From Thermococcus sp. JdFR-02 (lineage in GTDB: Archaea > Methanobacteriota_B > Thermococci > Thermococcales > Thermococcaceae), in contig MTLP01000008.1 of NCBI GenBank assembly GCA_002009975.1, positions 1 through 28,445 of the forward strand: 28,445 nt of DNA. Reading direction: 5' to 3'. Each line of letters starts with the position of its first letter. The first letter of the stretch is position 1. A program made the translations under genes and the position numbers. Shown piece by piece: positions 1,215-15,046 of the stretch. The notes beneath the pieces were generated by a model. The model was given only the letters and a program-made list of their open reading frames with translations, was not told the DNA's origin and did no database searches.

Positions 1215-1411
1215 CCTATTCTAAACTTGTAACCTTGTAAAGGTTGCATTGCTAGGTGACAGCAATGATAAGCCAAAAAATTAAATGCCTTGGAAAACCC
1301 TTACACCGGAAAAGCAAAAAACTACACGGCTGGTGCTGGAAAGAGCCCCGAGGGGGCTTACGACAAGAAGTTCTAATCCCCTTTTTAAAACATTTTTGAA
1401 AATACCGACAC

Positions 1412-1509
1412 TCAGTGGCATTTCAGTGGCACTCAGTGGCAGTCTTAGTTGCACCTCTCCCGCACGAGCAAACTCTCGTGCGCGCTGTCCCGGTACAGTG
1501 GCAGTGGCA
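1412..1509 (+). repeat. Cluster of (T)CAGTGGCA direct repeats plus an 8-bp inverted repeat
   Basis: TCAGTGGCA at 1412, 1423 and 1433; degenerate TTAGTTGCA at 1445; further overlapping CAGTGGCA copies in 1496-1509; CGCACGAG(1461-1468)-N6-CTCGTGCG(1475-1482); AT-rich run at 1381-1403. Confidence 0.85.
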
Positions 1510-1556
1510 CAGAGAGAGGGAAAAGAAAATACCTCTGCAGAAGGAGGTGGTATCTG

Positions 1557-2885
1557 ATGGGGGATATAGACATCCACAACATGGAACAGCGCTACAACAA
1601 CATCATAAAGGCAATAGAGGAGAGTACTATCCACGAGCGCAACAAGGAACTGATACTTGACTTTGCTGATAGCTGTCAGATCGGCTGGAACGGCACCAAG
1701 CTCTCTCTTGGCAGAGTGGTTAAGTATCTCAGCCACCTCAAAGAAATCGCCCTCATCCTTGGGGATAAGCCGTTTGACTACGTCACGGCAACCGACTTAA
1801 AAAGGATACTCAGAACAATATCCAGGGATCCTAAGAAGAGCAGTGAGTGGACACAGTACGACTACAGGGTTGCTTTAAGGAAGTTTTTCGCTTGGCTGAG
1901 GGAGGAATACGGTTACCCTGAAGACTATCCCGACAGAGAGGATCATATTCAGGCGCTGAATTTGATGAAGCTTGGCTTGGCAAAACATCCCTTAGAGGTA
2001 TCAAGGATCAAACCAAAGAAGCCCGACAAGCTCCGCGACAGGGACAAGATCCCCTCTAAAGAGTACATGAGATACCTCCGGAATGCCGCGGTAAACCCCA
2101 GAGACAGGGCTTACTTGGCAGTGTCGGAGGATTTGGGCCCCAGAATAGGGGGCATTGGCACGCGCAAGATAAAGCACGTGGAATTTGACGAGTTGGGCGC
2201 GAAGATCTACATGGAAGACAAGACGCTAAACGGCGAACCCGTGAGACTGACTTGGTCTTCGAGTTACCTTCGCGAATGGTTGGAGGTCCACCCCTTCAGA
2301 GACGATCCGGAGGCTCCCCTCTGGGTGAACCTCAGAGAGCTGGAGAGGCCGGTTCCTCTGGACTACGATGGGTTCCGCAGGATAATAAGCAGGGCGAGGC
2401 GTCGGCACAACCGTCGTGCAGAAGCGCTTGGCCTCCCAAAAATACCGCGTGATTTCGATACTTACGCGTTTCGATATTTCGCGCAGATACGTGATGAACT
2501 CAATGGCGTGCCAAGACGTGTCCAAGAGTTGCAGCGTGGTTGGGTACCTGGCTCAAAGCAGCCAAGCCGCTACGCTAGGCTTGTTGCCAAGGATGTGGAC
2601 GAGTACTTCAGAAAGAAGCTTGGCCTGAATAACGGAGAAAGAGACACCCCACAGGTTTGCCCGAGGTGCAAGGAAGTCAACCCCAACGACGTAATGTTCT
2701 GCCGGCGGTGCAGCATGCCGCTCAACGATGAGGCATCAAAGTACCGACAGAAGGTTGTGGAACTGGCATTAAGGATGTTGGCAGATCCCGATCTAAGTAA
2801 AATATTCCAGCAACTTGTTGCCGAGCAAGCTTCACTTTTCCTGCGCTCGGATAAAAAAGATGAAGGAGGGGTGATAGGAATATGA
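1557..2885 (+). CDS. Tyrosine recombinase/integrase with N-terminal SAM-like domain and C-terminal Zn ribbon
   Basis: Start moved to ATG 1557, which has RBS GGAGGTGG at 1543-1550. Motifs: NPRDRA..GPRIG (Arg I), DKT (Lys), YAFR (in place of HxxR), GWVPGSKQPSRY (Trp and catalytic Tyr), CPRC..CRRC ribbon typical of euryarchaeal integrases. Confidence 0.93.
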   Translation: MGDIDIHNMEQRYNNIIKAIEESTIHERNKELILDFADSCQIGWNGTKLSLGRVVKYLSHLKEIALILGDKPFDYVTATDLKRILRTISRDPKKSSEWTQYDYRVALRKFFAWLREEYGYPEDYPDREDHIQALNLMKLGLAKHPLEVSRIKPKKPDKLRDRDKIPSKEYMRYLRNAAVNPRDRAYLAVSEDLGPRIGGIGTRKIKHVEFDELGAKIYMEDKTLNGEPVRLTWSSSYLREWLEVHPFRDDPEAPLWVNLRELERPVPLDYDGFRRIISRARRRHNRRAEALGLPKIPRDFDTYAFRYFAQIRDELNGVPRRVQELQRGWVPGSKQPSRYARLVAKDVDEYFRKKLGLNNGERDTPQVCPRCKEVNPNDVMFCRRCSMPLNDEASKYRQKVVELALRMLADPDLSKIFQQLVAEQASLFLRSDKKDEGGVIGI

Positions 2886-3949
2886 TGAGGGGTATGTTGT
2901 CTCTCTTCAGAAGAATAGAAGTTTTCGACGACACGTATTTGCCAGAAAATTTCCTCCACCGCGATCGCGAGATGGAGGAGTTAATGGCATGCATAAAGCC
3001 GCTTGAGCACGGAATTCAGGGCTACAACGCTCTTCTGCATGGCAGACCTGCCACAGGGAAGACCACCGCGGTGCAGAAGGTCTTCCAGCAAATAGAGGAG
3101 TCTAGTTCCCGCATCCGCTGTGTTTACGTCAATGTCGCCCTAAAACCGAGTGCTTGGGGCACGTTGGCTGAAGCGTGTTTGAGGCTTACTGGGCAGAACG
3201 CCCTACCAGACAAGGGTACTGGGGTAATACACTTAGTGGACAGCATCTTCCGAAAGCTATCTAAGAAGAGAAATTCCCTTGTGTTGTGCCTGGACGAGTT
3301 CACGTCAATGCCCACGAAGGAACTTCAAACGGTGGTTGCGCCGTTCCTTCGCCCCTGGGAATTTAGCGCTGTATCGCGTGAAGTCAAAACCTCTATAATC
3401 CTTGTATCTTCCTCACTGCAATCCCCACGATTCAGGTCGGCAGTGGTCTCTAGCTTATGCCCTAGGTGGATTGAGTTCAAACCCTACAGTGCTGAGCAAA
3501 TGCACGATATCCTAAAAGTGAGGGCTGAGGCTGGCTTCGGTCCCAGAGTGGTGAGCGATGAAGCGCTGTGGCTACTCGCAACTGCAGCGAAAGACCTGAG
3601 GCATGCGATTCGCTTGTTGCGCCTAGCAGGCGAAATTGCAGAATCTCGGGGAACTAAGGTAGGGGTTGATGATGTGGAAAAGGCTTTTGAGCGGCTCCCA
3701 GATTCTCATGTGGCTTCAATGAGGCTCAGCGAAGCTGAGAGAAGAATACTAGACGAGATACAGTCTCGTGGCAGCATGCGTTCAGGCGAGATTTACTCTT
3801 TTTCGGAGAGAGAGCTTGGACTGAAGCGAACTAGAACGCGTCAAATCCTCGCGAGTATGATTAGGAAAGGTATACTAAACTCGGAAACGGTGAACCATAG
3901 GGGGCTGACGAAAGTGTTTACTGTCGCTAGGGGGTGGAAGAGTTGCTGA
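2882..3949 (+). CDS. cdc6: Orc1/Cdc6-type replication initiator (AAA+ plus winged helix)
   Basis: YLPENFLHRDRE N-terminal motif, Walker A GRPATGKT, Walker B LCLDE, IEFKPYSAEQMHDILKVRA, sensor-2 DLRHAI, C-terminal wH; ATGA overlap with the integrase stop. Confidence 0.93.
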   Translation: MMRGMLSLFRRIEVFDDTYLPENFLHRDREMEELMACIKPLEHGIQGYNALLHGRPATGKTTAVQKVFQQIEESSSRIRCVYVNVALKPSAWGTLAEACLRLTGQNALPDKGTGVIHLVDSIFRKLSKKRNSLVLCLDEFTSMPTKELQTVVAPFLRPWEFSAVSREVKTSIILVSSSLQSPRFRSAVVSSLCPRWIEFKPYSAEQMHDILKVRAEAGFGPRVVSDEALWLLATAAKDLRHAIRLLRLAGEIAESRGTKVGVDDVEKAFERLPDSHVASMRLSEAERRILDEIQSRGSMRSGEIYSFSERELGLKRTRTRQILASMIRKGILNSETVNHRGLTKVFTVARGWKSC

Positions 3950-4815
3950 CCTGCCCCGAGTGCGGCGGCACGGTTGTATATGAGGGTGGCGAGCATGTTT
4001 GCACTGAGTGCGGGCTTGTCGTCGGCGACGGCATAGCCACCACGGAAAAATACGTTAGCTTCACAAGCGTCGACCACCACGAGAAGATCACAAGCGTAAT
4101 GGACAACCCGCTCAGGAAGAGGGGCAACAAGGTACACACGAAGACCCCTGAGGAGAAGCGTGATGATACCGTGCACCACTTGCTGGAGAACTGCAGGGCA
4201 CCAGATTACATACGCTCTACCGCAAAGATGCTCGCGGGCAAGTACTTCAGAGCTGGTGGGGACATCCGCAAGATCGGCAGCAACGAGGACTTTGTGGCTG
4301 CGCTGCTGTACCTGAGCTACCGCCTCTGCAAGCAGGTACCTCCAAGCGAACTAGGCGATGCGGAAAAAGTACAGACCCGGGTGAGCAAGATTGTCAGGGT
4401 GTTGCGCAGTGTAGGTGCCAATGTGCCCATATATTCGGTCTCTCCCGGGGCGCACGAGCTGATACCTGTTCTGTGCAGAAAGCTTGGCAGGCCCGAACTT
4501 GCAGACAACGCGCTCAAACTGCTCGCATCCTTACCACACAGCAGCCAAATGCCAGCCACGCGGGCAGCGGTGTGTGTCTACGAGGCATTCCATAGGGAGG
4601 GTGTAAAGGTAACCTTCAAAGAGGTGGCAAAGGCAGCAGGCATCAACTCCAGCACTGTGTCAAAGAGCTACAATGAAGTCTTCAAGTCCAATAAAGAAAA
4701 GAAAGATATAGGGCAGGATACCCAGATACCAGTGAGGGGAATAGCAGCGAGCGAGTTTTTGACTGTGTTGCATCACACCCTGCTCAGGCTCTCTAACATC
4801 AAACAGGGAGGATAA
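3934..4815 (+). CDS. tfb: Divergent transcription factor B (TFB/TFIIB) homologue
   Basis: N-terminal Zn ribbon CPECGG..VCTECGLVV, two cyclin-like repeats (FVAALLYLSYRL; PATRAAVCVYEA), C-terminal HTH VTFKEVAKAAGINSSTVSKSY; GTG start overlapping the cdc6 end. Confidence 0.85.
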   Translation: MEELLTCPECGGTVVYEGGEHVCTECGLVVGDGIATTEKYVSFTSVDHHEKITSVMDNPLRKRGNKVHTKTPEEKRDDTVHHLLENCRAPDYIRSTAKMLAGKYFRAGGDIRKIGSNEDFVAALLYLSYRLCKQVPPSELGDAEKVQTRVSKIVRVLRSVGANVPIYSVSPGAHELIPVLCRKLGRPELADNALKLLASLPHSSQMPATRAAVCVYEAFHREGVKVTFKEVAKAAGINSSTVSKSYNEVFKSNKEKKDIGQDTQIPVRGIAASEFLTVLHHTLLRLSNIKQGG

Positions 4816-4830
4816 AAAACCCTCGCTTTT

Positions 4831-5175
4831 TTAGCGTCTGATTTGTGGCCGGTATATTTCTCTCGTAAGTTCCAGTGAGTCTGCCAAATGACTACCTTCT
4901 GATATGATTGGCTTTCTTATATTGCCGCACGAGTTGCTGTTCATACCAAGCACACATACCCTTGCTTGAATGAGAATCATCCCATCCCGCTCCACACTCT
5001 CCTCGTTCTTCCTCCTATCCGCCCTTGACAGGGCGCAGTTTAGGCACCTGTTCTTATGCGCAACTCCAGCTTTTGCCACCTGCAGCAATGCATCCCTCAG
5101 TTCGTCTAAAGGTATCCCGAGCTTCTCGGCGAAAGGTACATAGCTTTTGAGAAGTTTCTCAAAGTCAGCGGTCAT
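4831..5175 (-). CDS. Small Cys-containing hypothetical protein (CLNC..C..C), downstream of the MinD-like gene
   Basis: 114-aa ORF with a G-rich RBS, co-oriented 20 bp after the MinD-like stop. Confidence 0.7.
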   Translation of the reverse strand: MTADFEKLLKSYVPFAEKLGIPLDELRDALLQVAKAGVAHKNRCLNCALSRADRRKNEESVERDGMILIQARVCVLGMNSNSCGNIRKPIISEGSHLADSLELTREIYRPQIRR

Positions 5176-5194: not shown

Positions 5195-6070
5195 TCACTC
5201 CTTTTTACGAAGGATACTCCTCAGGATACGCATCCGCCGCAACGCTTCGAGTACGCCCCCTCTCCTGTCCCTGCTCTCCTGCACAGATATGTCCTCCCAG
5301 CCTTCCCTCCCAGCAATCTTCGCTGCAAGTTGCCTTATCGCAATAGCTGCTGGATCATCTGGCTTGTACGTTACCAAACACTCCCAGCGTTCGATTGCCT
5401 CCTCTACCGCGGGAGAGTAGGGCACTATCTGCACTACTTCAACGCCATGCTTTTTGAAGAAATTCCTGACCTTCTCCTCCTCGCCCCTGATCACGGCGTT
5501 GGCTATGACACCATCTATCAGCCTCTCGTCTCTCTTGAGAGTTTTCATTGCGAGGTTACTCAGAGTTCCTATCATCTGCTCTCCAGCTGTGAGAGAGTCC
5601 TGCGTCGGCCTCACGACAAGGTAGCAGGTTCCCACGAGTGAGAAGAAGTAGTGCAGTGTTGTTTTCCCGGCAGGAAGGTCAATTATGGCGAAACTGGTGT
5701 GGTCATCGAAAAACTGAAGCAGCAGGGAAAGCTTCTTCCTCAGAAGCTCCTTGTTTTTCAGGCTCGGGTGCGGTTCAAACCCCCTCACGTTTGGCATCAC
5801 AAGCAGGTTGTTCATCACTGAGGAGCGGACAACTGCGTCCTCTGGCAGAACCTCCGGATCTCTAAAGAAATCAAAGATATCCTTCCTGGGGGTGGTGCTG
5901 GGGCCAAGCAACATGCTTGTGGTTCTGCTCCCCGGGTCAACATCCACCATAATGACATTCTCCCCGGGGCACATCTGTGCGAATGCCACACCTAGATTGG
6001 AAGCTATGAAAGTCTTGCCAGTGCCGCCCTTGTTGCTGAGCAACACGATCACTTTAGTCCTCTGCTCCAT
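5195..6070 (-). CDS. minD: MinD/ParA-family ATPase
   Basis: Deviant Walker A SNKGGTGKT, VDVDP (switch I), IIDLPAG (Walker B), VPYSPAVEEA, P..PAAIAIRQLA, basic amphipathic C-terminus resembling a membrane-targeting sequence. Confidence 0.92.
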   Translation of the reverse strand: MEQRTKVIVLLSNKGGTGKTFIASNLGVAFAQMCPGENVIMVDVDPGSRTTSMLLGPSTTPRKDIFDFFRDPEVLPEDAVVRSSVMNNLLVMPNVRGFEPHPSLKNKELLRKKLSLLLQFFDDHTSFAIIDLPAGKTTLHYFFSLVGTCYLVVRPTQDSLTAGEQMIGTLSNLAMKTLKRDERLIDGVIANAVIRGEEEKVRNFFKKHGVEVVQIVPYSPAVEEAIERWECLVTYKPDDPAAIAIRQLAAKIAGREGWEDISVQESRDRRGGVLEALRRMRILRSILRKKE

Positions 6071-6136: not shown

Positions 6137-7063
6137 TCAGCGCAACCCCTTCACCGGCAAGACGTACTTCACCATGCGTCTGAGCAGGTGTATTAACCTA
6201 CCACCCCCAACAGTGGAGAGCACAGCTACCATTGACACCGTCACTGCCATACCCGAGATTGCTGGGATGAGGTAGAGCCAGAGTAGCACCTCGTCCACGT
6301 ACCAGTCGAAGAACTCATTCCAGAGCTCGATCAGCACTGGTATCGCAGGTGGAAGTGCTATGAGCCTCAGCGGGAAAAGGAGCGGCAGAGCGGTCGGGAA
6401 GAAGCCAAGAGGAGGTTCCGCGTTTACACCAATCTCATGGTCAAGAGGCATAATCAACCCTACGAGCGTTGCTGGTAGAACAAGCCAGAGGGCGATTGCT
6501 GCTGCCACGAGGAAAGCCCCTGCGTAGCGCATCCCTGGCACAAGCAGAAACACCATCCCAAAGGGGAAAAGTGTGCTCATCGCGTAGTTATGCCCGAACC
6601 TGAGCAAAGCCAACACAACTGCCACAGCTTCGCCAGCGTCGTAGAGCCTGTCGAGCACGCGCGTCAGCATTTGTGAGATCGCCTTCGCCGGAAACCCGAG
6701 TAGCGGGACTGCACCACCAATGGAACCTACAGACTTCACAACAGCCGCCTGCACACTCGCCGAGACGATGCGCTTCAGGTGTGCACTGACGAATTCCTCT
6801 GCGGTGTTGTAGAGCGCATCCACGTGCAACGCTTCTCCAGCAACTTGGAAGCCATGGGCGAGCGCAAAGATCACGAGCGTCACTTGGCCGACAGCGCTCA
6901 ACACGCGCACCTGAGCTTCGCTTAGCTCTCTATCGCTCATTACGGGCACGAGTACCAGGAGGTGGAACACCCTGAGCAGAACCGCTGCGGTGCCAAGGTA
7001 TATCGCAAGCCTAAGGTAAGATTCAACTGCCGGGTCCACACTAACCACCTCACTCGTATTCAT
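6137..7063 (-). CDS. Polytopic membrane protein, CedA/VirB6-like DNA-transfer channel candidate
   Basis: About 6-7 hydrophobic segments; LFPFGMVFLLVPGMRYAGAFLVAAAIALWLVLP recalls the conserved P..R..GA.L core of CedA-type proteins; clustered with pilin and VirB4-like genes. Confidence 0.6.
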   Translation of the reverse strand: MNTSEVVSVDPAVESYLRLAIYLGTAAVLLRVFHLLVLVPVMSDRELSEAQVRVLSAVGQVTLVIFALAHGFQVAGEALHVDALYNTAEEFVSAHLKRIVSASVQAAVVKSVGSIGGAVPLLGFPAKAISQMLTRVLDRLYDAGEAVAVVLALLRFGHNYAMSTLFPFGMVFLLVPGMRYAGAFLVAAAIALWLVLPATLVGLIMPLDHEIGVNAEPPLGFFPTALPLLFPLRLIALPPAIPVLIELWNEFFDWYVDEVLLWLYLIPAISGMAVTVSMVAVLSTVGGGRLIHLLRRMVKYVLPVKGLR

Positions 7064-7343
7064 CGAGTGCTTCCAGAGCCTCGTCTGTCAGTGCGTCCAG
7101 CAGAGGCTTCCTCAACCTGCCAGTGTTACCAGTATCTAGGAGGTATCCTCCCTCTGCAACGGCGCGCAGGACATCTTTACCAAAGAGTCCCGTATCCTCT
7201 AAGTATCCTTCTTCCAGCTTGCCCCTCCTGAAGAAAAGGTAACCTACTTGCTTTATTTTACCCTGAGAACTTTGCAGCACCCTGACGAGCCCGGAGTACC
7301 TCGAGGAGAGAAGTCGCTCCACTTCGGAGCCATCGAGTATCAC
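7050..7343 (-). CDS. Small soluble protein, DUF2226/PatA-N-like domain (97 aa)
   Basis: Start moved to GTG 7343 (GTGA overlap with the upstream stop); YSGLVRV..GYLFFRRGKLEEGY..G.FGKDVL pattern. Confidence 0.6.
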   Translation of the reverse strand: MILDGSEVERLLSSRYSGLVRVLQSSQGKIKQVGYLFFRRGKLEEGYLEDTGLFGKDVLRAVAEGGYLLDTGNTGRLRKPLLDALTDEALEALDEYE

Positions 7344-7846: not shown

Positions 7847-7894
7847 ATTTCCGACACCTCTCACCTTCAAAACCGCCACCCTCCTGAGAGGGAC

Positions 7895-9301: not shown

Positions 9302-9913
9302 GTGAACATTGTGTTTGTCGGCCCCGGACAGGGTAAGAGTATTACAGCTGCATTGCTTGCAGTCACGCATGTCGTTACCGCCTACGACGCCGACCCTTAC
9401 AGGGCACTCGTGGAGTTGTACCCTCGGGCCGAGGTCTACGAGGGACCCGATGATCTCATACCGCCGTGCATCATTGACACCAGCCGTGTTGACAGGAGGG
9501 GTAGACCATACCTTGCAGTAATCCGTGAAAACCCGGGGGCGTGGGTTATTCTCGTGACCACCCCATTCTTCCATCAGGTGGCAGTGGCGCGGCGTGTTGC
9601 GAAGGACGTGAAGGATTGCACAGGTACCGCGGTGCGGGGCGTAATAGTGAGCATGGCAGCAAGCGAGGATGAGGCAAAGAGCGTGGCTGAACGGCTCGGT
9701 GTTCCCCTCACTGGCTGGCTACCGCTGTCGAAAGCTCTCGAGGAAATGCTCGCCACCGGTACCGTTATTTCCGAAAAAGAGGATGGTGCATCACCTGTTG
9801 GGGATGCCGCACTTATCGAGCGCATACTAGCGCTTGGAAAGGAGCTGGGACTACAGGTTCGCCTGCGACAACGCGATAAGAAGAGAGGCAGATTACCGTG
9901 GCTAAAGCGCTAA
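9302..9913 (+). CDS. Degenerate MinD/ParA-like P-loop protein
   Basis: IVFVGPGQGKS P-loop without the signature Lys, YDADP, IIDTS, LVTTP, GVIVS, LGVPLTGWLPLS; RBS GAGGTGA. Confidence 0.75.
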   Translation: MNIVFVGPGQGKSITAALLAVTHVVTAYDADPYRALVELYPRAEVYEGPDDLIPPCIIDTSRVDRRGRPYLAVIRENPGAWVILVTTPFFHQVAVARRVAKDVKDCTGTAVRGVIVSMAASEDEAKSVAERLGVPLTGWLPLSKALEEMLATGTVISEKEDGASPVGDAALIERILALGKELGLQVRLRQRDKKRGRLPWLKR

Positions 9914-9962
9914 ACTTCTTTTGTATGATTCCTTTTTATATGTCTCTTGCCACGGTTTGGCG

Positions 9963-12374
9963 ATGAAAGGTAAGATTCTACTCGCTCTGGTAGCTGTGGC
10001 ACTTCTTCTCGCAATCACCGTGCTACACCTTCCAAAGCAGATACACTCCTCCGGGGGAGTGTTGGTGCGCATGGGCTATGATGAGCAAGGCAAGTACATC
10101 CTTGTAGCACCGCGCGAGCCAGCGCTCATTGAGGAACTGAAAGTTGGCAGGAAGGTTGTAGCAAGGAACATTTGGGCACCAGTGGAGGGCGCCAGGGTAC
10201 CGTACAACTGGAAGCCTAAGAGAGTATACGCTGTGGACGTCAGACTCAGCACAGGGAGGGAGGTGGTAAGAGTAGCCGCACCTCCGCTGAGCCCTGTCCT
10301 TGATGCAGAGCCACTGGCGTACAACTCTTCTGACAGGGCAGAGTTGCTGCTTCGGATGCTTTATGCAGAGTACGACAGGATCATAATCCTGCGCACCAGT
10401 CATCTGCCAGAGAGAGTGCACATTCTGTCCATGCCTGCCGTTGGTATCAGCCAGGGCGACCTTGACAGCTTCACCTCAGCTCTTTCGGATCTGCTCAGGA
10501 AAGCACATGTAGAGGTGGACTTCGGGAGCAGAGTATCGGAAAAGGAATTGCAGGACAGGAGAACGGTGCTCGTTGTCGCTGGAGGAGTGATGCCCAGCGA
10601 TGAAAAACTGCTCGATGCGGTGAGGTCGCAGCGCCGCTGGGGTGAATGCAGGATCATATACTTGGGGCTGCAACCCGGTGCTGTGTTGGTCGACCAAAGC
10701 GGAAACACAATGCCAGGAAGGATACTGCCAGGTACCCTTTCGGGAAGCGCAGAGGTGCGCAGCAAAGTGCTGAAGATGAAGAAGTCACTGTACACATCGA
10801 GCACGTTCTCCGCTGCGCCAGCGCACAGGGAAGACGGCTCGCCAGCGGTCTACCTAACAGGCTGCACACTCGTGTTCTCGAACACCATATCTGGGGGCTG
10901 GGACTCGCCAGAGGACGCTGCGTGGGACGTATTCTACGCGGTGCTCACCGATGGCTCCATGAACCCGCCCGAAGTGCAACTCACCCCTGACAGAGATGCA
11001 GGGAGTGCCCTCCTGCGCCTCACTTACAGCGAGCAGAACATATCCCTCCTAGCCTTCCGTGGGGATAAGCTCTCCAGCGTTTTGCATCTGAAGGCACCTG
11101 TTGTCGGTGAACCTCTTGAAGCTGATCTCACGCTGCTCGAGGATCCCATGCCTGGCGAGGTGGAGGCGGTAGTGTGGGTATCCAACGCCAGCGGGCGCGT
11201 CCGCGTCATCGCCACCAGCCTGAGCACTAACCAGACCTTGGTGACGGATCTTGGAAGGGCTGAGGGTGAGGCCTCTTTCAGGGCAAAGTTGCACCTCCCG
11301 CCGGGGGATGTGCTCCTTGGCGTGGAGTCGGGAGGCCACCTCTCAGCGGTGAAGGAGTTCCACGTGCCCGTGATAAGAGCAGCTGCAAGGCCCGTCAAAG
11401 GAGGATACTTGGTCAACGTGACTGAGGACGGCTCACCATACAGCGGCGAGGTTGTGGTTAGCTCTCCTAGAGGAGGTACCGGCAGGCTGAAGATTCAGGG
11501 CAGACTGTTCGTGAGGGACAGCAGCTTCAACCTTGTGTTGCGCGGTTATCAGGTGCCTGTCACATACTTCCCACCCGAAAAGAGGAACGTGCCTGTGGGA
11601 CTGATTGCTGCGGCGCTTGCTGCGCTGCTCCTCACTGTTATGTCGCGCCTGAGGCCACGGCGCCGCCAACCTACTGTACGGATACGGATACATGTGCCTG
11701 AGCCTGAAGAGGAGCAGGTGCGTGCATCGAGCATCATCTCCGCCATGGAGCGCTACAACAAGCAGAGGGGGGTGGCATACCTCCCGCTGAGCCTGGAAGA
11801 GGTGAGAGAGGCTATAAGCACCTTCGCAGCGAGAACAGCTCCTTCCCCAGCGTCTGCTCTCGCGCTGCTGGAAAAAATGAAGTTGCTTGAAGGAGACGCA
11901 CAGATAAAGGAAGTGCACGGGTACTATGCACCTGCCGCTTGGGAGCGGGCTGCAGACCAGAGCGTGGAGCACCTTGCAATGATACGCGCGGTGTACGACT
12001 GGGCAACCTCTAGAGGGTTTATAGCAGAACCATTCACCACTAGAGGGGACACCTTCGAGGGCGCCCCCGACATGCTACTGCTCAGCCCTGATGACAGGGT
12101 GGTCTACGTGGAGGTGGTGAGTGGGCGCAGGAAAGCGCATCTAGAGCGCCTGTTAAAGACCTACACTCGCTGGGCAGAGAATCTGGCCAGCACGGAGGCG
12201 GAGAGCTACTCGCTCCCAGCCAGCATCTGGGTGGTGCTCACAGAGGACATCTACACACTCTATAGAGAGAAGTTAGAATCATGGGACTTTGCGATGAAGC
12301 TGAAGGCCCTGGAGAAAGAGGGCTACCTGAGAGTGGTGAGTATCGCAGACTTCTTGCGCGATTCTGAGCGTTAG
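9963..12374 (+). CDS. Large membrane-anchored protein (~803 aa): extracellular beta-rich region, C-proximal TM, cytoplasmic tail with PD-(D/E)xK-like motif
   Basis: Start moved to ATG 9963 (MKGKILLALVAVALLLAITV); second TM VPVGLIAAALAALLLTVM followed by RLRPRRR; tail contains PDMLLLSPDDRVVYVEVVSG. Confidence 0.75.
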   Translation: MKGKILLALVAVALLLAITVLHLPKQIHSSGGVLVRMGYDEQGKYILVAPREPALIEELKVGRKVVARNIWAPVEGARVPYNWKPKRVYAVDVRLSTGREVVRVAAPPLSPVLDAEPLAYNSSDRAELLLRMLYAEYDRIIILRTSHLPERVHILSMPAVGISQGDLDSFTSALSDLLRKAHVEVDFGSRVSEKELQDRRTVLVVAGGVMPSDEKLLDAVRSQRRWGECRIIYLGLQPGAVLVDQSGNTMPGRILPGTLSGSAEVRSKVLKMKKSLYTSSTFSAAPAHREDGSPAVYLTGCTLVFSNTISGGWDSPEDAAWDVFYAVLTDGSMNPPEVQLTPDRDAGSALLRLTYSEQNISLLAFRGDKLSSVLHLKAPVVGEPLEADLTLLEDPMPGEVEAVVWVSNASGRVRVIATSLSTNQTLVTDLGRAEGEASFRAKLHLPPGDVLLGVESGGHLSAVKEFHVPVIRAAARPVKGGYLVNVTEDGSPYSGEVVVSSPRGGTGRLKIQGRLFVRDSSFNLVLRGYQVPVTYFPPEKRNVPVGLIAAALAALLLTVMSRLRPRRRQPTVRIRIHVPEPEEEQVRASSIISAMERYNKQRGVAYLPLSLEEVREAISTFAARTAPSPASALALLEKMKLLEGDAQIKEVHGYYAPAAWERAADQSVEHLAMIRAVYDWATSRGFIAEPFTTRGDTFEGAPDMLLLSPDDRVVYVEVVSGRRKAHLERLLKTYTRWAENLASTEAESYSLPASIWVVLTEDIYTLYREKLESWDFAMKLKALEKEGYLRVVSIADFLRDSER

Positions 12375-13723
12375 TATCTCTTTGCTGCCCTATACCTCTG
12401 CAGTGCCAGCTTTTTGATCTTCCTCATCGGATCGCTGAGCTTTATGCGCAGCCTCACCTGCTTCTGTGGCAGTATTGCCCTGACATTGACGATGAATGGT
12501 GGCACGACTGCCTGCCTGTATTTGAGCTTTGCGATGCACTGCCCCACGAGGAGGTTAGCGAAACGTCCCTGCAGGTACTGGCTCAGCCCCAGCGTCTTTG
12601 AGAGGGACTCTCTGTCTGTATCCTTCTGTATCATCAGTGTGAACACTGCACCAGCGTTGTTTAGCAAGTAATCGTCTTCCTTTATATCGCTAAGGTCTTG
12701 TGTTGCCGCAATCACGCCGATGCCGTACTTCCTGCCCTCCTTGTCGAGAGTTTTGACGGGTGAATCTTTCTGTGAGATGACCTTCCACGCCTCATCGATC
12801 ACCACGATCAGCCTCAGCCTTCTCTCCGCTGGTACACCGCCCCGGCGCATGTCCTCGACGATGTACTGCAGCACACTTGTTGTTACACTCATCCTAGCGC
12901 TCTCGCTTGGGAGCTTAGAGAGGTCGAGCACCACGTACCCGCTTTGCGTCAGCTCTTTAAGCGTAAGCGTGCTCTGCTTTGCAAGGTAGTCATGTGGCGG
13001 CTCAGTCACAGCCCTGAGCTTGTCGAGCAGCCCCACGAGCGACTCCCTTGCACTGGTGCTGTTGGCGAAGGTTAGCACCAGCTCACGTTCCTTCTCGTTC
13101 TCGTACTCCTTGTTCTCATACTCCTTCGTTATTACGTCGCGCCAGAGGTTTCTGAGTATCCTGTAGGCGTCACCCAGCGTGGGAGGCTCCCTGTCCCAGG
13201 TATCTGGGTCGTCCGTGATGCCCTTCTCTGCGTATGCGAGGTCCACGGCATCGCGCAGTATCCTTGCCTGTCTCGTAGCTCTGTCTGTGTCGAAGAAAGG
13301 TTGCATCGCCTCAACCACTTGGGCAGCGCGCACTGCTGGCGGCACGCCGCCCAGGTCCATGATGTTTAGAAAGTGCCTGACTCCGAGCTGTACAACGTGC
13401 CCGCCAACCATCTCAGCGAAAGGCGCGTACTCACCTGTAATGTCAAACACCAGCACGTTCGCGCCGAAAGACAGGGTCGAACGTAAAGTAAGTGTCCGGA
13501 CAAAGTATGTCTTGCCAGAACCGCTGGAACCAAGAACGACCATGTGATAGTTTATGAGTTCTTCAGGCTTCCAGAATACTGGTTTTCGGAGTATCTCTGT
13601 GTGTCCTATGTAGGCCGCTCTGCCGTCCTGCTTGGGCACCAAGTGCCTAGCCAATGGCTCAGGCGGCCTCACCAAGTTTGTTCTCCCGACAACTCTCGAA
13701 ACAGAAACTCGCCCTGCTAGCAT
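12371..13723 (-). CDS. VirB4/HerA-family (CedB-like) DNA-transfer ATPase
   Basis: NYHMVVLGSSGSGKT Walker A, VFDITGEY, VVLDLS, IVVIDEAW Walker B, EGRKYGIGVIAATQ, LLNNA; no TM and no HAS barrel. Confidence 0.9.
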   Translation of the reverse strand: MLAGRVSVSRVVGRTNLVRPPEPLARHLVPKQDGRAAYIGHTEILRKPVFWKPEELINYHMVVLGSSGSGKTYFVRTLTLRSTLSFGANVLVFDITGEYAPFAEMVGGHVVQLGVRHFLNIMDLGGVPPAVRAAQVVEAMQPFFDTDRATRQARILRDAVDLAYAEKGITDDPDTWDREPPTLGDAYRILRNLWRDVITKEYENKEYENEKERELVLTFANSTSARESLVGLLDKLRAVTEPPHDYLAKQSTLTLKELTQSGYVVLDLSKLPSESARMSVTTSVLQYIVEDMRRGGVPAERRLRLIVVIDEAWKVISQKDSPVKTLDKEGRKYGIGVIAATQDLSDIKEDDYLLNNAGAVFTLMIQKDTDRESLSKTLGLSQYLQGRFANLLVGQCIAKLKYRQAVVPPFIVNVRAILPQKQVRLRIKLSDPMRKIKKLALQRYRAAKRY

Positions 13724-13984
13724 GCAATTCTCCGAAAGCAGAAGATATCTAAAAAGCCATGATTTGGATATCCTCTATATTAAAACTACGGCATCAGAAT
13801 CGAGAACATTGGCAAACTGCCGAAAATGCTCAACGAACACGCAATTGAAAAAGTTGCAAACATACAACTTCCTAGGGGGATCCTTTGACCCCTTTGCTGC
13901 ACGAAATGAGTATTAGATGTTCTGCTGAGATTGAAAAGATTGAGAAGCGAAAGTTCCAAATAGAAGCGTAGTTATCTATCAGCA

Positions 13985-14455
13985 ATGAATGAGGTGCCAC
14001 TTCCCAATGTGAGCAGGGTTATTTACCTGATTGAGGAACTCCTACTCTGGACGTTATCCGTTTTGCTGTTCTCTGTCGTCCTGAAGGGTGTGGATGTGGT
14101 TGTCTATTCGGACCAAACGCTTGTTTTTAGGATGAACATCTTCCATGGCATTGGTCTGCTACTTGTGTGGTTCGCACTCGACTGTACATGGAAGAGTATC
14201 GCTAGCAGAGGTCTCATCCACAAATCCATATACAATGGATACTGGGAGGAGAAGCTGGCTGACCTTGCTAGGCTGGTGCTCGAAATGATCTCAAAACTGC
14301 GGAATCTCTGCAAGATTTTTCTGCTGGTGTACGTGAGCCTGCTATTGCTAAAAATACTGCTGTACGGAGTACCGTCTGTTAGACCCCTGCTTGAGGCTGG
14401 CATCAATATCGACTTCAGCATCGTCACTGAGTTTCAATTGGTGGAACTTATTTGA
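13985..14455 (+). CDS. Hypothetical membrane protein (about 3 TM)
   Basis: 156-aa ORF with three hydrophobic stretches; divergent from the ATPase gene. Confidence 0.65.
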   Translation: MNEVPLPNVSRVIYLIEELLLWTLSVLLFSVVLKGVDVVVYSDQTLVFRMNIFHGIGLLLVWFALDCTWKSIASRGLIHKSIYNGYWEEKLADLARLVLEMISKLRNLCKIFLLVYVSLLLLKILLYGVPSVRPLLEAGINIDFSIVTEFQLVELI

Positions 14456-15014
14456 GGCAAATCACCTTACTGAACATCCTCTTTACCTCTTCGGGGGCGT
14501 CTTCCACCGCAACGATCATAAGAGGTTGATCACTGGAGAGCGCAGCCTTAATCTTATCAATCAGCGCCTTGGAACCTTCCAGCCTCGCGCCGACTATCAT
14601 GACTATGGGCTTTCGCACCGCCCTCAGCAGCTCCGCAGCTCTGTCCTCCTCCCCCTGGTACAGAAGCTCAATGTGAGCATCCCGGAAAGCTGTGGTTCTT
14701 GTGGCTCCGCAGAAGTCCAGAACAAGCACATTTGACATCAGTCTCTTGGTGTAAAGACTGAGAGCAAGGCTTCTTGCGCAATCACGATATCCCTTCCCTA
14801 CAAAAAGCACATGCTCTTCTCCAGATAATCTGCATACAGAGGATCGCCTCCAGCTCTCTACAAATAAAGCACCCACCTTTTTCAACCACTCTGACAGGAT
14901 TCTGAACACGGCGGTTCCGCGTTCCCACATCTTCCCTACTCTCTTCAAAACCTTACCTTCCGATTCCCAGAGCTCCCTCAAGCATTGCGACAGTCTCCAT
15001 TTCACAGGACACAC
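14448..15014 (-). CDS. Hypothetical protein with remnant MinD-like P-loop fold
   Basis: HVLFVGKGYRDCARSLALSL..NVLVLDFCG mirrors the strand/P-loop/helix/VLxLD layout of MinD but lacks GKT; a motif-type TATA lies upstream. Confidence 0.55.
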   Translation of the reverse strand: MCPVKWRLSQCLRELWESEGKVLKRVGKMWERGTAVFRILSEWLKKVGALFVESWRRSSVCRLSGEEHVLFVGKGYRDCARSLALSLYTKRLMSNVLVLDFCGATRTTAFRDAHIELLYQGEEDRAAELLRAVRKPIVMIVGARLEGSKALIDKIKAALSSDQPLMIVAVEDAPEEVKRMFSKVICLK

Positions 15015-15033
15015 CGAGGAAGAGAAGAGGTAA

Positions 15034-15046
15034 GAGGTATATAAAG
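15034..15046 (-). promoter_or_regulatory. Variant of the shared motif (CTTTATATACCTC)
   Basis: 20 bp upstream of the GTG at 15014, compatible with a leaderless transcript. Confidence 0.5.

What the first reader, a model, noticed from the sequence alone, without database searches (positions are those of the whole stretch)
1340..15046. Archaeal ICE-like element combining integrase, own Orc1/Cdc6, own TFB and a Ced-like transfer machine
Seen: integrase, cdc6 and tfb overlap in one operon, next to MinD/ParA, a pilin, a CedA/VirB6-like protein and a short VirB4/HerA-like ATPase. Established: crenarchaeal Ced/Ted DNA-import systems are chromosomal, relaxase-free homologues of conjugation machinery, while pNOB8-type plasmids use a larger VirB4 plus VirD4. 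Inference: a minimal Ced-like apparatus on an integrating, self-replicating element, possibly an undescribed element class linking conjugation to domesticated DNA import.
Basis: partly seen in the sequence, partly recalled or inferred. Interest (0 to 1): 0.82.

Follow-up and report, generated by a model that had tools for sequence, protein, structure and literature searches.

The report
Compact archaeal mobile element, possible DNA-transfer module
A foreign, GC-rich block of about 12 kb in a vent archaeon's genome bin carries its own integrase, replication initiator, transcription factor and a set of membrane proteins with a motor ATPase that may form a stripped-down DNA-transfer machine, but neither that function nor its mobility is shown yet.

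Summary
The genes are real. An integrase, Orc1/Cdc6 and TFB overlap in one operon. Beside them lie a MinD/ParA, six membrane proteins and a 450-aa DUF87-type ATPase. The block is 51-59% GC; the bin's large contigs are 37%.

The ATPase and the 308-aa membrane protein were not found in any other genome of the host family or phylum searched, so the block is accessory. Their families are tiny and metagenomic.

The Ced-like reading is only partly supported. The ATPase scores about equally with CedB (92 bits), DndH/DptH (98 bits) and VirB4/HerA. The 308-aa protein has no sequence match to CedA or VirB6. VirB6/TrbL appear in two fold searches at non-significant E of 0.2-0.27. The "pilin" has the right topology (signal peptide plus helical hairpin) but no match.

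No VirD4, att repeat or circular junction was found. The integrase's closest known relatives are integrases of Archaeoglobus and Geoglobus pleomorphic viruses, so a provirus is a live rival.

TFB on archaeal conjugative elements, and membrane-protein-plus-ATPase modules on Thermococcales integrative plasmids, are already published.

The scan found no look-alike sequence on other DNA. It has noted chromosomal minimal T4SS-like operons in other archaea.

The parts
1413..1509 (.). Cluster of five copies of the octamer CAGTGGCA just upstream of the integrase start. Candidate iterons: origin, integrase arm sites or operator.
   Evidence: All 5 matches in the window lie here. 1.09 are expected by chance, and 0 of 100 shuffles reach 5. 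Sequence read.
1557..2885 (+). Tyrosine integrase with a C-terminal zinc ribbon. The ORF is open from TTG 1449; the likely start is ATG 1557.
   Evidence: phrog_1 3.3e-7, XerA 7.2e-5, SAM-like 0.0021, DZR 0.0025. Full-length relative of the integrases of Geoglobus acetivorans pleomorphic virus 1 and ThalV2 (tblastn 3e-25 and 1e-15; phmmer 2e-34 and 9.1e-24). The alignment keeps R196, K222, R298, W329, Y339 and the CPRC...C.RC ribbon.
2882..3949 (+). Orc1/Cdc6-type replication initiator: AAA+, lid and winged helix. Overlaps the integrase stop by 4 nt.
   Evidence: NF001624 6e-62, TIGR02928 2.3e-47 (161.6 bits, cut-off 181.3), Cdc6_lid 2.7e-11. Only 25-27% identical to the bin's other Cdc6 genes on C2, C25 and C40.
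3934..4815 (+). TFB/TFIIB-like transcription factor. Overlaps the cdc6 end by 16 nt.
   Evidence: TFIIB Zn ribbon 1.4e-7, TFIIB repeat 1.1e-6, NF001658 1.2e-10.
4831..5175 (-). 114-aa protein of unknown function, last gene of the leftward operon.
   Evidence: No family. Paralogue on contig C18 (phmmer 4.6e-23).
5195..6070 (-). MinD/ParA-family ATPase: partition, or a VirC1-like role.
   Evidence: CbiA 2e-16, minD_bact 2e-21, phrog_164 ParA-like 4.6e-19.
6137..7063 (-). 308-aa polytopic membrane protein with about 7 long helices (TM308). Candidate VirB6/CedA/TedA-like channel.
   Evidence: No Pfam, NCBIfam or PDB sequence hit for it or its 15 relatives. AF2 model pLDDT 81.5, pTM 0.74. Foldseek: R388 TrwI/VirB6 at rank 10, E 0.27 (PDB); TrbL at rank 3, E 0.20 (BFVD). 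Atlas nearest cluster is named 'CedA1 domain-containing', score 0.91, with recognition below the tool's mark.
7050..7460 (-). 136-aa ORF. It overlaps the next gene by 121 nt, so the true start is probably later. Doubtful or short gene.
   Evidence: ORF list. No family.
7340..7879 (-). 179-aa membrane protein with about 5 hydrophobic segments, first gene of the leftward operon.
   Evidence: Hydropathy scan. No family.
7931..8698 (+). 255-aa protein: N-terminal membrane anchor plus a charged helical cytoplasmic part. First gene of the rightward operon.
   Evidence: Hydropathy. No family. Paralogue on C18 (4.4e-10).
8889..9290 (+). Small secreted hydrophobic hairpin protein (ORF open from 8817; P157). 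Candidate VirB2/TedC-like pilin, or a virion membrane protein.
   Evidence: The signal-peptide-like N-terminus ending ...VYA/GS was read by eye. AF2 single-sequence model pLDDT 70.5: helix 44-74, loop, helix 80-116. No relatives. No Pfam or PDB hit at E<=10. TrbC and T4SS_pilin profiles do not hit it. Atlas leads at 0.88-0.89 to T4SS_pilin/TrbC clusters.
9302..9913 (+). 203-aa degenerate P-loop protein, a second ParA/MinD-like candidate.
   Evidence: The GPGQGKS motif was read by eye. CbiA 0.024, ParA 0.046, all below cut-offs.
9921..12374 (+). 817-aa bitopic protein: N-terminal anchor or signal, about 520-aa ectodomain, TM at 557-575, about 240-aa cytoplasmic domain.
   Evidence: Hydropathy. 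No family at E<=10. Paralogue on C18 (5.8e-35). The conserved C-terminal pattern GD..E..PD...VE...G(K/R) is seen in alignment A4; the nuclease reading is my inference and was not tested.
12371..13723 (-). 450-aa DUF87-type (HerA/VirB4/DptH clade) ATPase, motor domain only. Convergent with the 817-aa gene, overlapping it by 4 nt.
   Evidence: DUF87 2.8e-16, TraG P-loop 4.5e-13. CedB 2.4e-26, VirB4 CD1110 1.6e-18, TraC 6.7e-16. DndH 5.6e-29, HerA 1e-19. PDB: DptH 8.4e-17, VirB4 4ag5 4.7e-6 over residues 54-385. Single copy in the bin.
13782..13845 (.). 64-nt intergenic stretch at the drop in GC that recurs in other sequence contexts in three metagenome runs. Possible recombination core or regulatory element.
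   Evidence: Loose ends and record 12 of run X2 (a 6,529-nt contig, 4 differences), and both-sided loose ends in X4. No second copy in the window or the bin.
13985..15014 (.). Two genes of unknown function: a 156-aa membrane protein (+) and a 188-aa protein (-). GC is 46-49%. Whether they belong to the element is open.
   Evidence: ORFs. No family. Contigs of X1 and X2 run through them without a break.

Best explanation
The block from about 1.35 to about 13.8 kb is the core of a mobile genetic element that came from a GC-richer archaeal host. It sits inside a larger mosaic accessory region of a low-GC Thermococcaceae-like genome bin.

Shown: an overlapping operon encodes a tyrosine integrase, an Orc1/Cdc6 initiator and a TFB.

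Inferred: these insert and excise the element, fire its own origin (perhaps at the five CAGTGGCA repeats upstream), and steer the host RNA polymerase to element promoters. A MinD/ParA, plus a degenerate second one, partitions the DNA or brings it to the membrane.

Two divergent operons and one convergent gene encode six membrane proteins and a soluble 450-aa DUF87 ATPase. I read these as a minimal DNA-transfer apparatus of the Ted/Ced/T4SS kind, without relaxase or VirD4. In that reading the ATPase is the motor, the 308-aa seven-helix protein is the channel, the small signal-peptide hairpin protein is the pilin, and the 817-aa anchored protein is a surface adhesin with a cytoplasmic DNA-handling domain.

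The mobile-element part is well supported. The DNA-transfer function is the most likely reading, but it is an inference.
For: Foreign and accessory:
- GC is 51-59% against 37% in the large contigs.
- ATPase protein: 0 of 24 same-family and 0 of 2 same-order genomes at E<=0.001.
- ATPase profile: 2 of 97 family genomes at E<=1e-10, namely the bin itself and one partial 7.2e-12 hit in a 534-aa frame.
- TM308 profile: 1 of 133 phylum genomes, the bin itself.
- The linkage is not an assembly artefact. Contigs of three runs from three studies bridge both GC borders: X2 647-3431 and 3404-16340, X1 1325-15604.
- A vent run (X4) holds int-cdc6 at 97-98% identity and the ATPase at about 90%, but nothing for 4003-10005. 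That indicates mosaic relatives.

Element functions: integrase, Cdc6, TFB and ParA family hits. The integrase keeps the catalytic pattern. The iteron cluster is non-random.

Transfer-apparatus reading:
- The part list matches the Ted locus as published: a pilin with an SPase I signal, a 7-TM TedA, a VirB4-like TedB and a MinD/ParA (PMC9905601 section 6, read).
- The ATPase hits CedB and VirB4-family profiles, and VirB4 4ag5 over its whole length.
- VirB6/TrbL appear in the top 10 of two independent fold libraries for a confident TM308 model.
- Language-model neighbours of TM308 and P157 point to CedA1, T4SS_pilin and TrbC clusters.
- TFIIB next to archaeal T4SS genes is a published pattern (PMC6563490, passages).
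Against: - No significant structural or sequence match of TM308 to VirB6, CedA or TrbL. Foldseek gave 0 hits at E<=0.001. The TrbL profile finds nothing in the bin at E<=1. No Pfam, NCBIfam or PDB hit for any of the 16 family members.
- P157 has no relative and no match. Its fold search returned unrelated helical proteins.
- The ATPase does not resolve. DndH/DptH (98.4 bits) is at or above CedB (92.5 bits, cut-off 700), and HerA profiles also hit.
- It lacks the VirB4 N-terminal domain, and no VirD4 is present.
- No att direct repeat, no tRNA and no circular junction were seen, so integration and excision are not shown.
- The flanks are themselves accessory. All 36 of the bin's 1160 2-kb windows above 48% GC lie on small contigs. 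Whether the 37%-GC archaeon is the host is therefore unproven.
- 77 CRISPR spacers of the bin do not touch the contig, which is uninformative.
Confidence: 0.45

Rival explanations
1. It is a provirus of an enveloped, pleomorphic (pleolipovirus-like) or otherwise membrane-bearing archaeal virus. In this reading the small hydrophobic signal-peptide protein is an internal membrane protein (VP3-like). The 817-aa anchored protein is the spike or fusion protein (VP4-like). The ATPase is a virion or packaging NTPase. Integrase, Cdc6 and TFB serve lysogeny and replication.
For: - The integrase's best known relatives are integrases of two Archaeoglobi pleolipoviruses: BK065156.1 (95% coverage, 3e-25) and BK065158.1. 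They share a C-terminal zinc ribbon.
- Those genomes are 13.4 and 16.2 kb, the size of this core.
- The order 'small membrane protein, then large signal- and anchor-bearing protein' resembles their VP3-VP4 order.
- Makarova et al. 2014 list HerA-like ATPases and Orc/Cdc6 in archaeal dark-matter islands as 'virus associated' (PMC4158269 Table 1, passages).
- The ATPase hits phrog_7035 (6.7e-24) and a 'terminase large subunit' phrog (2e-15).
Against: - Of 26 contig proteins compared with 24 proteins of the two viruses at E<=10, only the integrase matches.
- Their NTPase is 312-346 aa with Walker A near residue 25. This one is 450 aa, DUF87-type, with Walker A at 65.
- tblastn of the ATPase against 50,697 virus records hit 9, all unannotated 'Bacteriophage sp.' from faecal samples and none archaeal.
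- IMG/VR scans with the ATPase profile gave only matches of 46% identity or less over short segments (best E 1e-14 at 24%). Scans with the 817-aa protein, TM308, integrase and Cdc6 gave none.
- No capsid-like family.
- Two ParA-like genes fit a plasmid better.
- A 2026 survey of Thermococcales viruses found no Orc1/Cdc6 in its viral genomes (PMC12934983, passages).
Confidence: 0.2
2. It is a cryptic integrative plasmid or island whose membrane-protein and ATPase module does something other than move the element. Candidates are a surface or secretion system, entry exclusion, or a DptH/HerA-type defence module, riding on an integrase-Cdc6-TFB backbone.
For: - The best single profile score of the ATPase is DndH/DptH: 5.6e-29, one stretch 38-351 against 1344-1645 of 1715. 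The best PDB hit is DptH, 8.4e-17.
- Sources name relatives 'DptH' or 'HerA-like'.
- The contig and its sister contig C18 are rich in defence and TA genes: HicAB-like pair by eye, PIN, Shedu SduA, AbiE-type AAA, RecD2-like helicase.
- Paralogues of the 817-aa, 255-aa, 114-aa and MinD genes sit scattered on C18 without an ATPase.
Against: - Only the ATPase domain resembles DptH. The protein is 450 aa against about 1,700.
- None of the 5 element neighbours tested (817-aa, 203-aa, 255-aa, TM308, 188-aa) hits PADLOC. MinD gives only a marginal TRIP13 match, 9.9e-5.
- No DndF/G-type partner was seen.
- Six membrane proteins and a secreted hairpin protein are not a known defence architecture.
- The same ATPase also hits CedB, VirB4 and TraC profiles.
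Confidence: 0.2
3. The contig does not belong to the 37%-GC archaeon at all. It would be a co-binned piece of a plasmid or chromosome of another, GC-richer vent archaeon. This concerns the host, not what the element is.
For: - All 36 2-kb windows above 48% GC lie on small contigs: C18, C22, C24-27, C29, C32, C37, C43.
- The integrase type has relatives in Archaeoglobi viruses.
- A preprint on 122 complete Thermococcales genomes reports that all 72 integrated elements use SSV1-like integrases at tRNA genes (10.64898/2026.09.28.752058, passages).
- Integrase relatives in the family occur only in 3 multi-contig assemblies.
Against: - The contig itself is a mosaic with a 27-35% GC block at 16-20.5 kb.
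- That linkage recurs in independent assemblies.
- Depth along the contig in X1 is even, 84-110.
- Sister contigs of the same bin carry paralogues.
- The ATPase profile was not found in 401 sampled genomes of the phylum that holds a Methanothrix MAG, nor in 401 of the phylum that holds a Thermoplasmatota MAG. No alternative host is known.
Confidence: 0.3

Closest known systems
Ted system of Thermoproteales (TedA/TedB/TedC plus MinD/ParA; Beltran et al. 2023, PMC9905601)
   Same: Same list of parts: a small pilin-like protein with a cleavable signal peptide and two hydrophobic helices, a roughly 7-helix membrane protein, a VirB4/HerA-class ATPase and a MinD/ParA ATPase. No relaxase and no VirD4.
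   Different: Ted is chromosomal and is proposed to import cellular DNA. Here the genes sit with an integrase, Cdc6 and TFB on foreign DNA. No sequence or significant fold match to TedA or TedC was obtained. The ATPase is a bare 450-aa motor domain.
Ced system of Sulfolobales/Desulfurococcales (CedA, CedA1, CedA2, CedB)
   Same: CedB is the best NCBIfam profile for the ATPase (2.4e-26). The nearest language-model cluster of the 308-aa protein carries the CedA1 domain in 23% of its members.
   Different: The CedB score is 92.5 bits against a cut-off of 700. CedA1 is not processed according to PMC9905601, whereas P157 has a signal peptide. Ced is chromosomal.
pT26-2 family of integrative plasmids of Thermococcales and Methanococcales (Badel et al. 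2019, PMC6972569)
   Same: Same host order and habitat and a similar size class (17-38 kb). Same overall plan: an integrase, an exchangeable replication module, and a conserved module of many membrane proteins with one VirB4/HerA-like ATPase, proposed to be a new DNA or protein transfer system.
   Different: No sequence relation was found. ATPase and TM308 profiles hit none of 96 other family genomes. I did not verify that those genomes carry pT26-2 elements. The replication module here is Orc1/Cdc6 plus TFB. The integrase groups with Archaeoglobi virus integrases.
Integrative-conjugative elements of Nitrososphaeria (Krupovic et al. 2019, PMC6563490) and conjugative plasmids pNOB8 (Sulfolobus) and pT33-3 (Thermococcus)
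   Same: Archaeal, relaxase-free, with a VirB4-class ATPase and membrane proteins. All thaumarchaeal ICEs carry a TFIIB gene.
   Different: Those carry a VirB4 plus VirD4 pair and are far larger: median 64 kb for the ICEs, 103 kb for pT33-3. No VirD4 is found in this bin, and the core is about 12 kb.
Archaeoglobi pleolipoviruses GacPV1 (BK065156.1) and ThalV2 (BK065158.1)
   Same: The integrase is homologous over its full length, including the C-terminal zinc ribbon. Genome size is similar. A small membrane protein is followed by a large anchored protein.
   Different: No other protein matches at E<=10. They replicate with a rolling-circle Rep, not Cdc6. Their NTPase is of a different size and layout.

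Membership tests
Ced system | CedB ATPase reaching the NCBIfam equivalog score (NF041017, 700 bits) | tested here: not met
   92.5 bits in two stretches covering profile positions 254-370 and 426-535 of 590. The roughly 250 N-terminal profile positions have no counterpart.
Ced system | CedA: polytopic VirB6-like membrane protein | tested here: inconclusive
   About 7 helices in a confident model. No sequence hit. Only a language-model lead to a CedA1-domain cluster. No CedA profile or sequence was available for a direct comparison.
Ced system | Chromosomal, DNA-damage-induced import of cellular DNA | not testable with these tools
   No RNA run holds the stretch. The context here is a mobile element, not core chromosome.
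Ted system | TedC-type pilin: SPase I signal peptide plus helix-loop-helix, VirB2 fold | tested here: inconclusive
   Signal-like N-terminus read by eye, and a hairpin at 44-74/80-116 in the model. PDB sequence search at E<=10 found nothing, so no similarity to the solved TedC or CedA1 chains. Foldseek gave no specific hit, but the model included the signal helix and had pLDDT 70.5.
Ted system | VirB4-like ATPase and MinD/ParA encoded with the pilin and channel genes | tested here: met
   The ATPase at 12371-13723 and MinD at 5195-6070 lie within 8.5 kb of both candidates.
Type IV secretion / conjugation (VirB/D4) | VirB6/TrbL channel protein | tested here: inconclusive
   The Pfam TrbL profile finds nothing in the bin at E<=1. 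Foldseek: TrwI/VirB6 at rank 10, E 0.27; TrbL at rank 3, E 0.20. Neither is significant.
Type IV secretion / conjugation (VirB/D4) | VirD4/TraG coupling ATPase | tested here: not met
   PF02534: 0 matches in the whole bin. The control search rang in 5 of 14 genomes, including Sulfolobus acidocaldarius.
Type IV secretion / conjugation (VirB/D4) | Full-length VirB4 (N-terminal domain plus motor domain) | tested here: not met
   450 aa with Walker A at residue 65. VirB4/TraC profiles match only their C-terminal halves, for example CD1110 positions 391-553 of 752.
pT26-2 plasmid family | The seven core genes, including ATPase t26-14p | tested here: inconclusive
   No homologue of the ATPase or TM308 in 96 other family genomes. 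The family is reported as widespread there (PMC6972569). I did not compare directly with pT26-2 proteins, nor confirm that such elements are in those genomes.
Pleolipoviridae | Conserved VP3-like, VP4-like and NTPase genes | tested here: not met
   phmmer at E<=10 of 26 contig proteins against 24 proteins of GacPV1 and ThalV2: only the integrase matches. Haloarchaeal members were tested only through the ATPase tblastn, which gave no hit.
Tyrosine recombinases | Catalytic R...K...HxxR...H/W...Y | tested here: met
   R196, K222, R298, W329 and Y339 are invariant in the alignment with two viral integrases. The first position of HxxR is Lys here. Motif naming is recalled knowledge.
Orc1/Cdc6 | AAA+ module, lid and C-terminal winged helix; curated score | tested here: inconclusive
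   All three regions match. The scores lie below curated cut-offs: TIGR02928 161.6 against 181.3, NF001624 209.7 against 354. It is a divergent member.
Dnd/Dpt defence (DptH) | About 1,700-aa DptH with DptF/DptG partners | tested here: not met
   Only the ATPase domain matches (38-351 against 1344-1645 of 1715). The protein is 450 aa. Of the 6 element neighbours tested, 5 do not hit PADLOC and MinD gives only a marginal TRIP13 match, 9.9e-5.

The most novel reading that the evidence does not exclude
This is a self-transmissible archaeal integrative element of only about 12-14 kb. Its three-part machine (hairpin pilin, seven-helix channel, bare VirB4-class motor), helped by ParA and working without relaxase or VirD4, would be the still-mobile counterpart of the domesticated Ced and Ted DNA importers. 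It carries its own Orc1/Cdc6 and TFB, so it can replicate and be transcribed in hosts as different as a 55%-GC donor and a 37%-GC Thermococcaceae recipient.
Probability: 0.25. Interest if true: 0.8.

Novelty: new variant of a known kind. Interest (0 to 1): 0.55.

Why it matters
Conjugation in Euryarchaeota has been shown experimentally only for one 103-kb plasmid. Ced and Ted are read as domesticated conjugation machines whose mobile ancestors have not been identified.

A 12-kb element with integrase, initiator, transcription factor and a minimal VirB4-class membrane machine would be a tractable model. It is small enough to clone and mark in Thermococcus. It could show how archaea move DNA without relaxase or coupling protein, and it could serve as a vector backbone for hyperthermophiles.

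If it turns out to be a provirus, it would extend enveloped pleomorphic-type viruses, or a new virus group, to Thermococcales. In either case the two protein families involved have no annotation today.

Tried and rejected
- Complex prediction of TM308 with mature P157: no verdict (score 0.00, controls not run).
- Profile comparison of TM308 with P157 and with the 179-aa membrane protein, to look for the CedA/CedA1-type internal homology: nothing (probabilities 0.6 and 0.1).
- Fold search of the P157 model: only unrelated helical proteins, 0 at E<=0.001. The test is weak for a 2-helix protein modelled with its signal helix.
Close relatives may have been cut off.
- IMG/VR scans: the ATPase profile gave 54 loci, all distant. 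The 817-aa protein, TM308 (A2), integrase and Cdc6 gave none. The A3 alignment was too diverse to scan.
- The tool that fetches contigs of exact proteins is closed, so synteny in the 9 ATPase and 15 TM308 relatives could not be examined.
- Sampled genomes of two other archaeal phyla: 0 of 401 and 0 of 401. These are samples, and the tool notes that an empty answer shows nothing.
- att search: no direct or inverted repeat of 12 nt or more links 600-1600 with 13650-15400. The best are 10-mers. No tRNA and no Rfam hit.
- No RNA holder was listed among the sequencing runs. Parts of the stretch had no cover in X4 and X2.
- An imperfect 35-nt repeat (15252 and 20674, 77% identity) brackets the low-GC block. 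I considered it a possible insertion mark but did not pursue it.
- CRISPR spacers of the bin (77) against the bin: no hit on C22.
- PDB sequence search of the integrase (E<=1) found nothing. The C-terminal domain of the 817-aa protein gave only two weak hits at E 0.069 or worse.
- Catchpole et al. 2023 on pT33-3 is not held. What I say about it comes from a review passage (PMC12857230).
- No ATPase phylogeny was made, because no CedB, TedB, VirB4 or DptH reference sequences could be obtained through the tools.
- Supplementary files of the cited papers were not seen. The Ted locus accessions and the pT26-2 core protein lists there could bear on the comparisons.

Full report
**What is there**

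The window is a whole contig (C22, 28,445 bp) of a 2.36-Mb, 44-contig genome bin. The bin's large contigs have 36.5-39.7% GC. Earlier notes of this scan call the bin Thermococcus- or Palaeococcus-like. I did not check that name. In the genome collection it is the only member of its genus within a family of 97 genomes.

Along the contig, GC is 43-47% up to 1.5 kb, 51-59% from 1.5 to 13.5 kb, 27-35% from 16 to 20.5 kb, and 49-61% from 21 kb to the end. There is no tRNA gene and no Rfam family.

**Genes of the GC-rich block**

Rightward operon of three overlapping frames:
- Tyrosine integrase, 1449/1557-2885. Hits are weak but consistent, and it has a C-terminal zinc ribbon.
- Orc1/Cdc6, 2882-3949, 6e-62.
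- TFB, 3934-4815.

Leftward operon:
- 179-aa membrane protein, 7879-7340.
- A doubtful 136-aa frame.
- 308-aa membrane protein "TM308", 7063-6137.
- MinD/ParA, 6070-5195.
- 114-aa protein, 5175-4831.

Second rightward operon:
- 255-aa anchored protein, 7931-8698.
- 157/133-aa protein "P157", 8817/8889-9290.
- 203-aa degenerate P-loop protein, 9302-9913.
- 817-aa protein, 9921-12374, with an N-terminal anchor, a large ectodomain, a second membrane span at 557-575 and a roughly 240-residue cytoplasmic tail.

Convergent with that operon is a 450-aa ATPase, 13723-12371.

Upstream of the integrase, five copies of CAGTGGCA lie within 97 nt. These are the only copies in the window, and 0 of 100 shuffles reach five.

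Its labels "pilin" and "CedA/VirB6-like" are interpretations.

**Is it accessory?**

- The ATPase protein matched 0 of 24 same-family and 0 of 2 same-order genomes at E<=0.001. The weaker hits in the same class are partial matches in frames of 487-832 aa.
- A profile of the ATPase and its 8 relatives matched 2 of 97 family genomes at E<=1e-10. One is the bin itself. The other is a partial 7.2e-12 hit in a 534-aa frame.
- The TM308 profile matched only the bin among 133 genomes of the phylum.
- DNA of 13700-21500 has no counterpart in the family apart from two matches of about 40 nt.

The block is therefore not a fixed, syntenic feature of relatives. The bin has no close relative in the collection, so no empty site could be compared.

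**How rare are the families?**

- ATPase: among 5.8 billion clustered proteins, 24 hits at E<=0.001. Only 9 clusters are at or above 34% identity. All are metagenomic, named by their sources HerA-like, DptH, VirB4 component or hypothetical.
- TM308: 3 word-based relatives and 15 representatives in an exhaustive HMMER search of 1.84 billion proteins.
- P157: none but itself.
- Sampled genomes of two further archaeal phyla gave 0 of 401 and 0 of 401 for the ATPase profile.

**The ATPase**

It is a bare motor domain with Walker A at residue 65. Profile scores across libraries are close:

| Profile or structure | E-value | Bits or extent |
|---|---|---|
| PADLOC DndH/DptH | 5.6e-29 | 98.4 bits |
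| NCBIfam CedB | 2.4e-26 | 92.5 bits, cut-off 700 |
| VirB4 CD1110 | 1.6e-18 | |
| Mycoplasma ICE VirB4 | 6.8e-18 | |
| TraC | 6.7e-16 | |
| CedD | 1.8e-12 | |
| PADLOC HerA (defence) | 1e-19 | 68.6 bits |
| NCBIfam anti-phage HerA | 3.2e-11 | 42.5 bits |
| PDB DptH | 8.4e-17 | |
| PDB VirB4 4ag5 | 4.7e-6 | residues 54-385 |

It belongs to the DUF87 (HerA/VirB4/DptH) clade. These scores cannot place it further. "Best hit CedB" holds for one library only.

**TM308**

None of its 16 family members hits Pfam or NCBIfam at a meaningful level. The profile finds nothing in the PDB at E<=10. The TrbL profile finds nothing in the bin.

The AlphaFold model from the 16-row alignment is confident (pLDDT 81.5, pTM 0.74) and all-helical, with about seven long helices.

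Foldseek gave no hit at E<=0.001 in either library. However, the R388 TrwI/VirB6 chain is rank 10 in the PDB (E 0.27, prob 0.51, 285 columns). A protein named TrbL is rank 3 in the viral library (E 0.20). VirB6-type proteins are rare in both libraries. I treat the agreement as a weak, non-statistical pointer.

The language-model atlas puts TM308 nearest a cluster named after the CedA1 domain. That domain is present in 23% of members, and the recorded members are DPANN (the atlas label Microcaldota sits in kingdom Nanobdellati and includes Micrarchaeia). The query's recognition value is below the tool's mark.

**P157**

- By eye it has a signal-peptide-like N-terminus ending VYA/GS.
- The single-sequence model (pLDDT 70.5) shows a helix-loop-helix at 44-74 and 80-116.
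- That is the topology published for TedC and bacterial VirB2 (PMC9905601, section 6, read).
- Nothing matches it in sequence. The fold search was unspecific.
- Atlas neighbours at 0.88-0.89 include T4SS_pilin and TrbC/VirB2 clusters. The tool rates that range as leads only.

**Integration and mobility**

No repeat links the two GC borders.

Logan contigs of three runs from three studies hold 77-95% of the sampled words of 1-10000. They bridge both borders: X2 covers 647-3431 and 3404-16340, and X1 covers 1325-15604 without a difference. The junctions with lower-GC DNA are therefore genuine. No circular junction was listed.

Assembly-graph breaks occur at 647-676 and 1325-1354 in X1 and X3.

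A variant of 4-676 (40 differences) is about eight times deeper and diverges after 676.

A fourth run, from a vent, carries int-cdc6 at 97-98% identity and part of the ATPase at about 90%, with nothing for 4003-10005. Relatives are therefore mosaic.

A 64-nt stretch (13782-13845), right where GC drops, recurs in other contexts in three runs. A back-joint 18987->13742 appears in X2 at depth 8. I cannot explain either.

**The integrase points elsewhere**

Its best matches among 50,697 virus records are the integrases of two pleolipoviruses:
- Geoglobus acetivorans pleomorphic virus 1: 95% coverage, 27.5% identity, 3e-25.
- ThalV2 of an Archaeoglobus.

Next come haloarchaeal and methanogen viruses. 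Haloarchaeal plasmids match more weakly.

The alignment shares R196, K222, R298, W329, Y339 and the C-terminal zinc ribbon.

Within the host family, integrase relatives occur in 3 of 96 other genomes, all multi-contig assemblies. None of the three has other element genes beside the integrase.

A preprint on 122 complete Thermococcales genomes reports only SSV1-like integrases in 72 integrated elements (passages). The backbone thus looks imported from another archaeal lineage, which fits its GC.

**The provirus rival**

The two Archaeoglobi viruses are 13.4 and 16.2 kb. Their gene order is integrase, small protein, VP3-like, VP4-like, then a P-loop protein of 312-346 aa. This resembles the P157-to-817-aa order here.

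At E<=10, however, only the integrase matches, out of 26 contig proteins against 24 viral proteins. The ATPase has no archaeal-virus hit. Five IMG/VR scans found nothing close.

**Context in the bin**

- All 36 of 1160 2-kb windows above 48% GC lie on small contigs.
- C18 carries paralogues of the 817-aa (5.8e-35), 255-aa, 114-aa and MinD genes, and of the three large surface-protein genes of C22's right part.
- C22 and C18 both end inside a gene pair that is 70% identical in protein and 88% in DNA.
- C32 carries a second, divergent TM308 gene (1.1e-19). C26 carries a TFB-like gene and a MinD. C25 and C40 carry Cdc6 genes.
- C18 also carries Shedu, an AbiE-type ATPase and a RecD2-like helicase.

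The element may therefore be part of a larger mosaic mobile region, or one of several related elements. Its assignment to the 37%-GC host is unproven.

No VirD4 and no other VirB4-type gene were found. DUF87 hits elsewhere in the bin are one strong match on C6 and one weak match on C19.

**Comparison with what is known**

- Relaxase-free archaeal conjugative elements with VirB4 plus VirD4 are known in Sulfolobales and Nitrososphaeria, and one in Thermococcus (pT33-3). Sources: PMC9905601, PMC6563490 and PMC12857230, passages read.
- All thaumarchaeal ICEs encode TFIIB.
- The pT26-2 plasmids of Thermococcales combine an integrase, variable replication genes and a module of membrane proteins with one VirB4/HerA-like ATPase.
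- Ted combines pilin, channel, ATPase and MinD/ParA.

What is different here is the combination: a core of about 12 kb, no VirD4, a motor-only ATPase, Orc1/Cdc6 and TFB in one operon with a virus-type integrase, and protein families with no annotation.

Literature searches gave no description of such an element. The terms were CedA1/VirB2/archaea; type IV pili/TFIIB/VirB4/arCOG; Thermococcales/integrated element/plasmid/VirB4; pT33-3; and CedB/mobile genetic element/integrase/plasmid. The library lacks most subscription papers, and supplements were closed.

**Verdict**

- It is a real mobile-element core of a rare, undescribed family (about 0.85).
- Its membrane and ATPase module is most likely a minimal DNA-transfer apparatus. 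My confidence in the whole statement is 0.45.
- The rivals are a membrane-bearing provirus (0.2) and a non-transfer membrane or defence module (0.2).
- I rate it a new variant of a known kind, with interest 0.55.

Noticed in passing
window 782-1214 (- strand): Two small overlapping ORFs (75 and 71 aa) that look by eye like a HicA/HicB toxin-antitoxin pair, between the contig's left end and the integrase. A weak HicA-like match also lies beside the integrase homologue on G075:C110.
   Followed up: partly
window 15252-15286 and 20674-20708: An imperfect 35-nt direct repeat (77% identity) brackets the 27-35% GC block. That block holds a PIN gene, a 596-aa AAA/ORC-like ATPase with a weak HEPN match, and two unknown membrane proteins. 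It may be a separate insertion into GC-rich DNA.
   Followed up: no
window 21493-28443; G000:C18 3040-6804 and 43800-45371: A cluster of large secreted or surface proteins (282, 978 and more than 526 aa, with CarboxypepD_reg and Big domains) and a radical SAM/SPASM enzyme. Three of them have paralogues on contig C18. Both contigs end inside the same gene family.
   Followed up: partly
G000:C32 4472-5695 (-), locus L241: A second, divergent copy of the TM308 family (E 1.1e-19; 407-aa ORF, one TGA inside the match) among five unannotated ORFs without any Pfam hit.
   Followed up: partly
G000:C18 18-38 kb, locus L239: A defence-like island: Shedu SduA (5.3e-28), an AbiEii-type AAA_21 ATPase (4.2e-19), a 1158-aa RecD2-like helicase and two adjacent ParA/MinD genes. 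It lies next to the 763-aa paralogue of the 817-aa protein.
   Followed up: partly
window 11640-12374 (residues about 590-817 of the 817-aa protein): The cytoplasmic tail keeps a GD..E..PD...VE...G(K/R) pattern with its C18 paralogue, which is reminiscent of PD-(D/E)xK nucleases. There is no Pfam or PDB support, and it was not folded.
   Followed up: partly
window 1-676: In two metagenome runs a variant of this stretch (40 differences), which includes a 123-aa secreted protein gene, is about 8 times deeper than the rest of the contig and diverges after 676. This suggests a more abundant related strain with a different neighbourhood.
   Followed up: no
G000 contigs C5, C7, C8, C10, C13: Five CRISPR arrays with 29-30-nt repeats, from which 77 spacers were extracted. 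One spacer of C5 matches the bin's own contig C8 perfectly over 38 nt.
   Followed up: no
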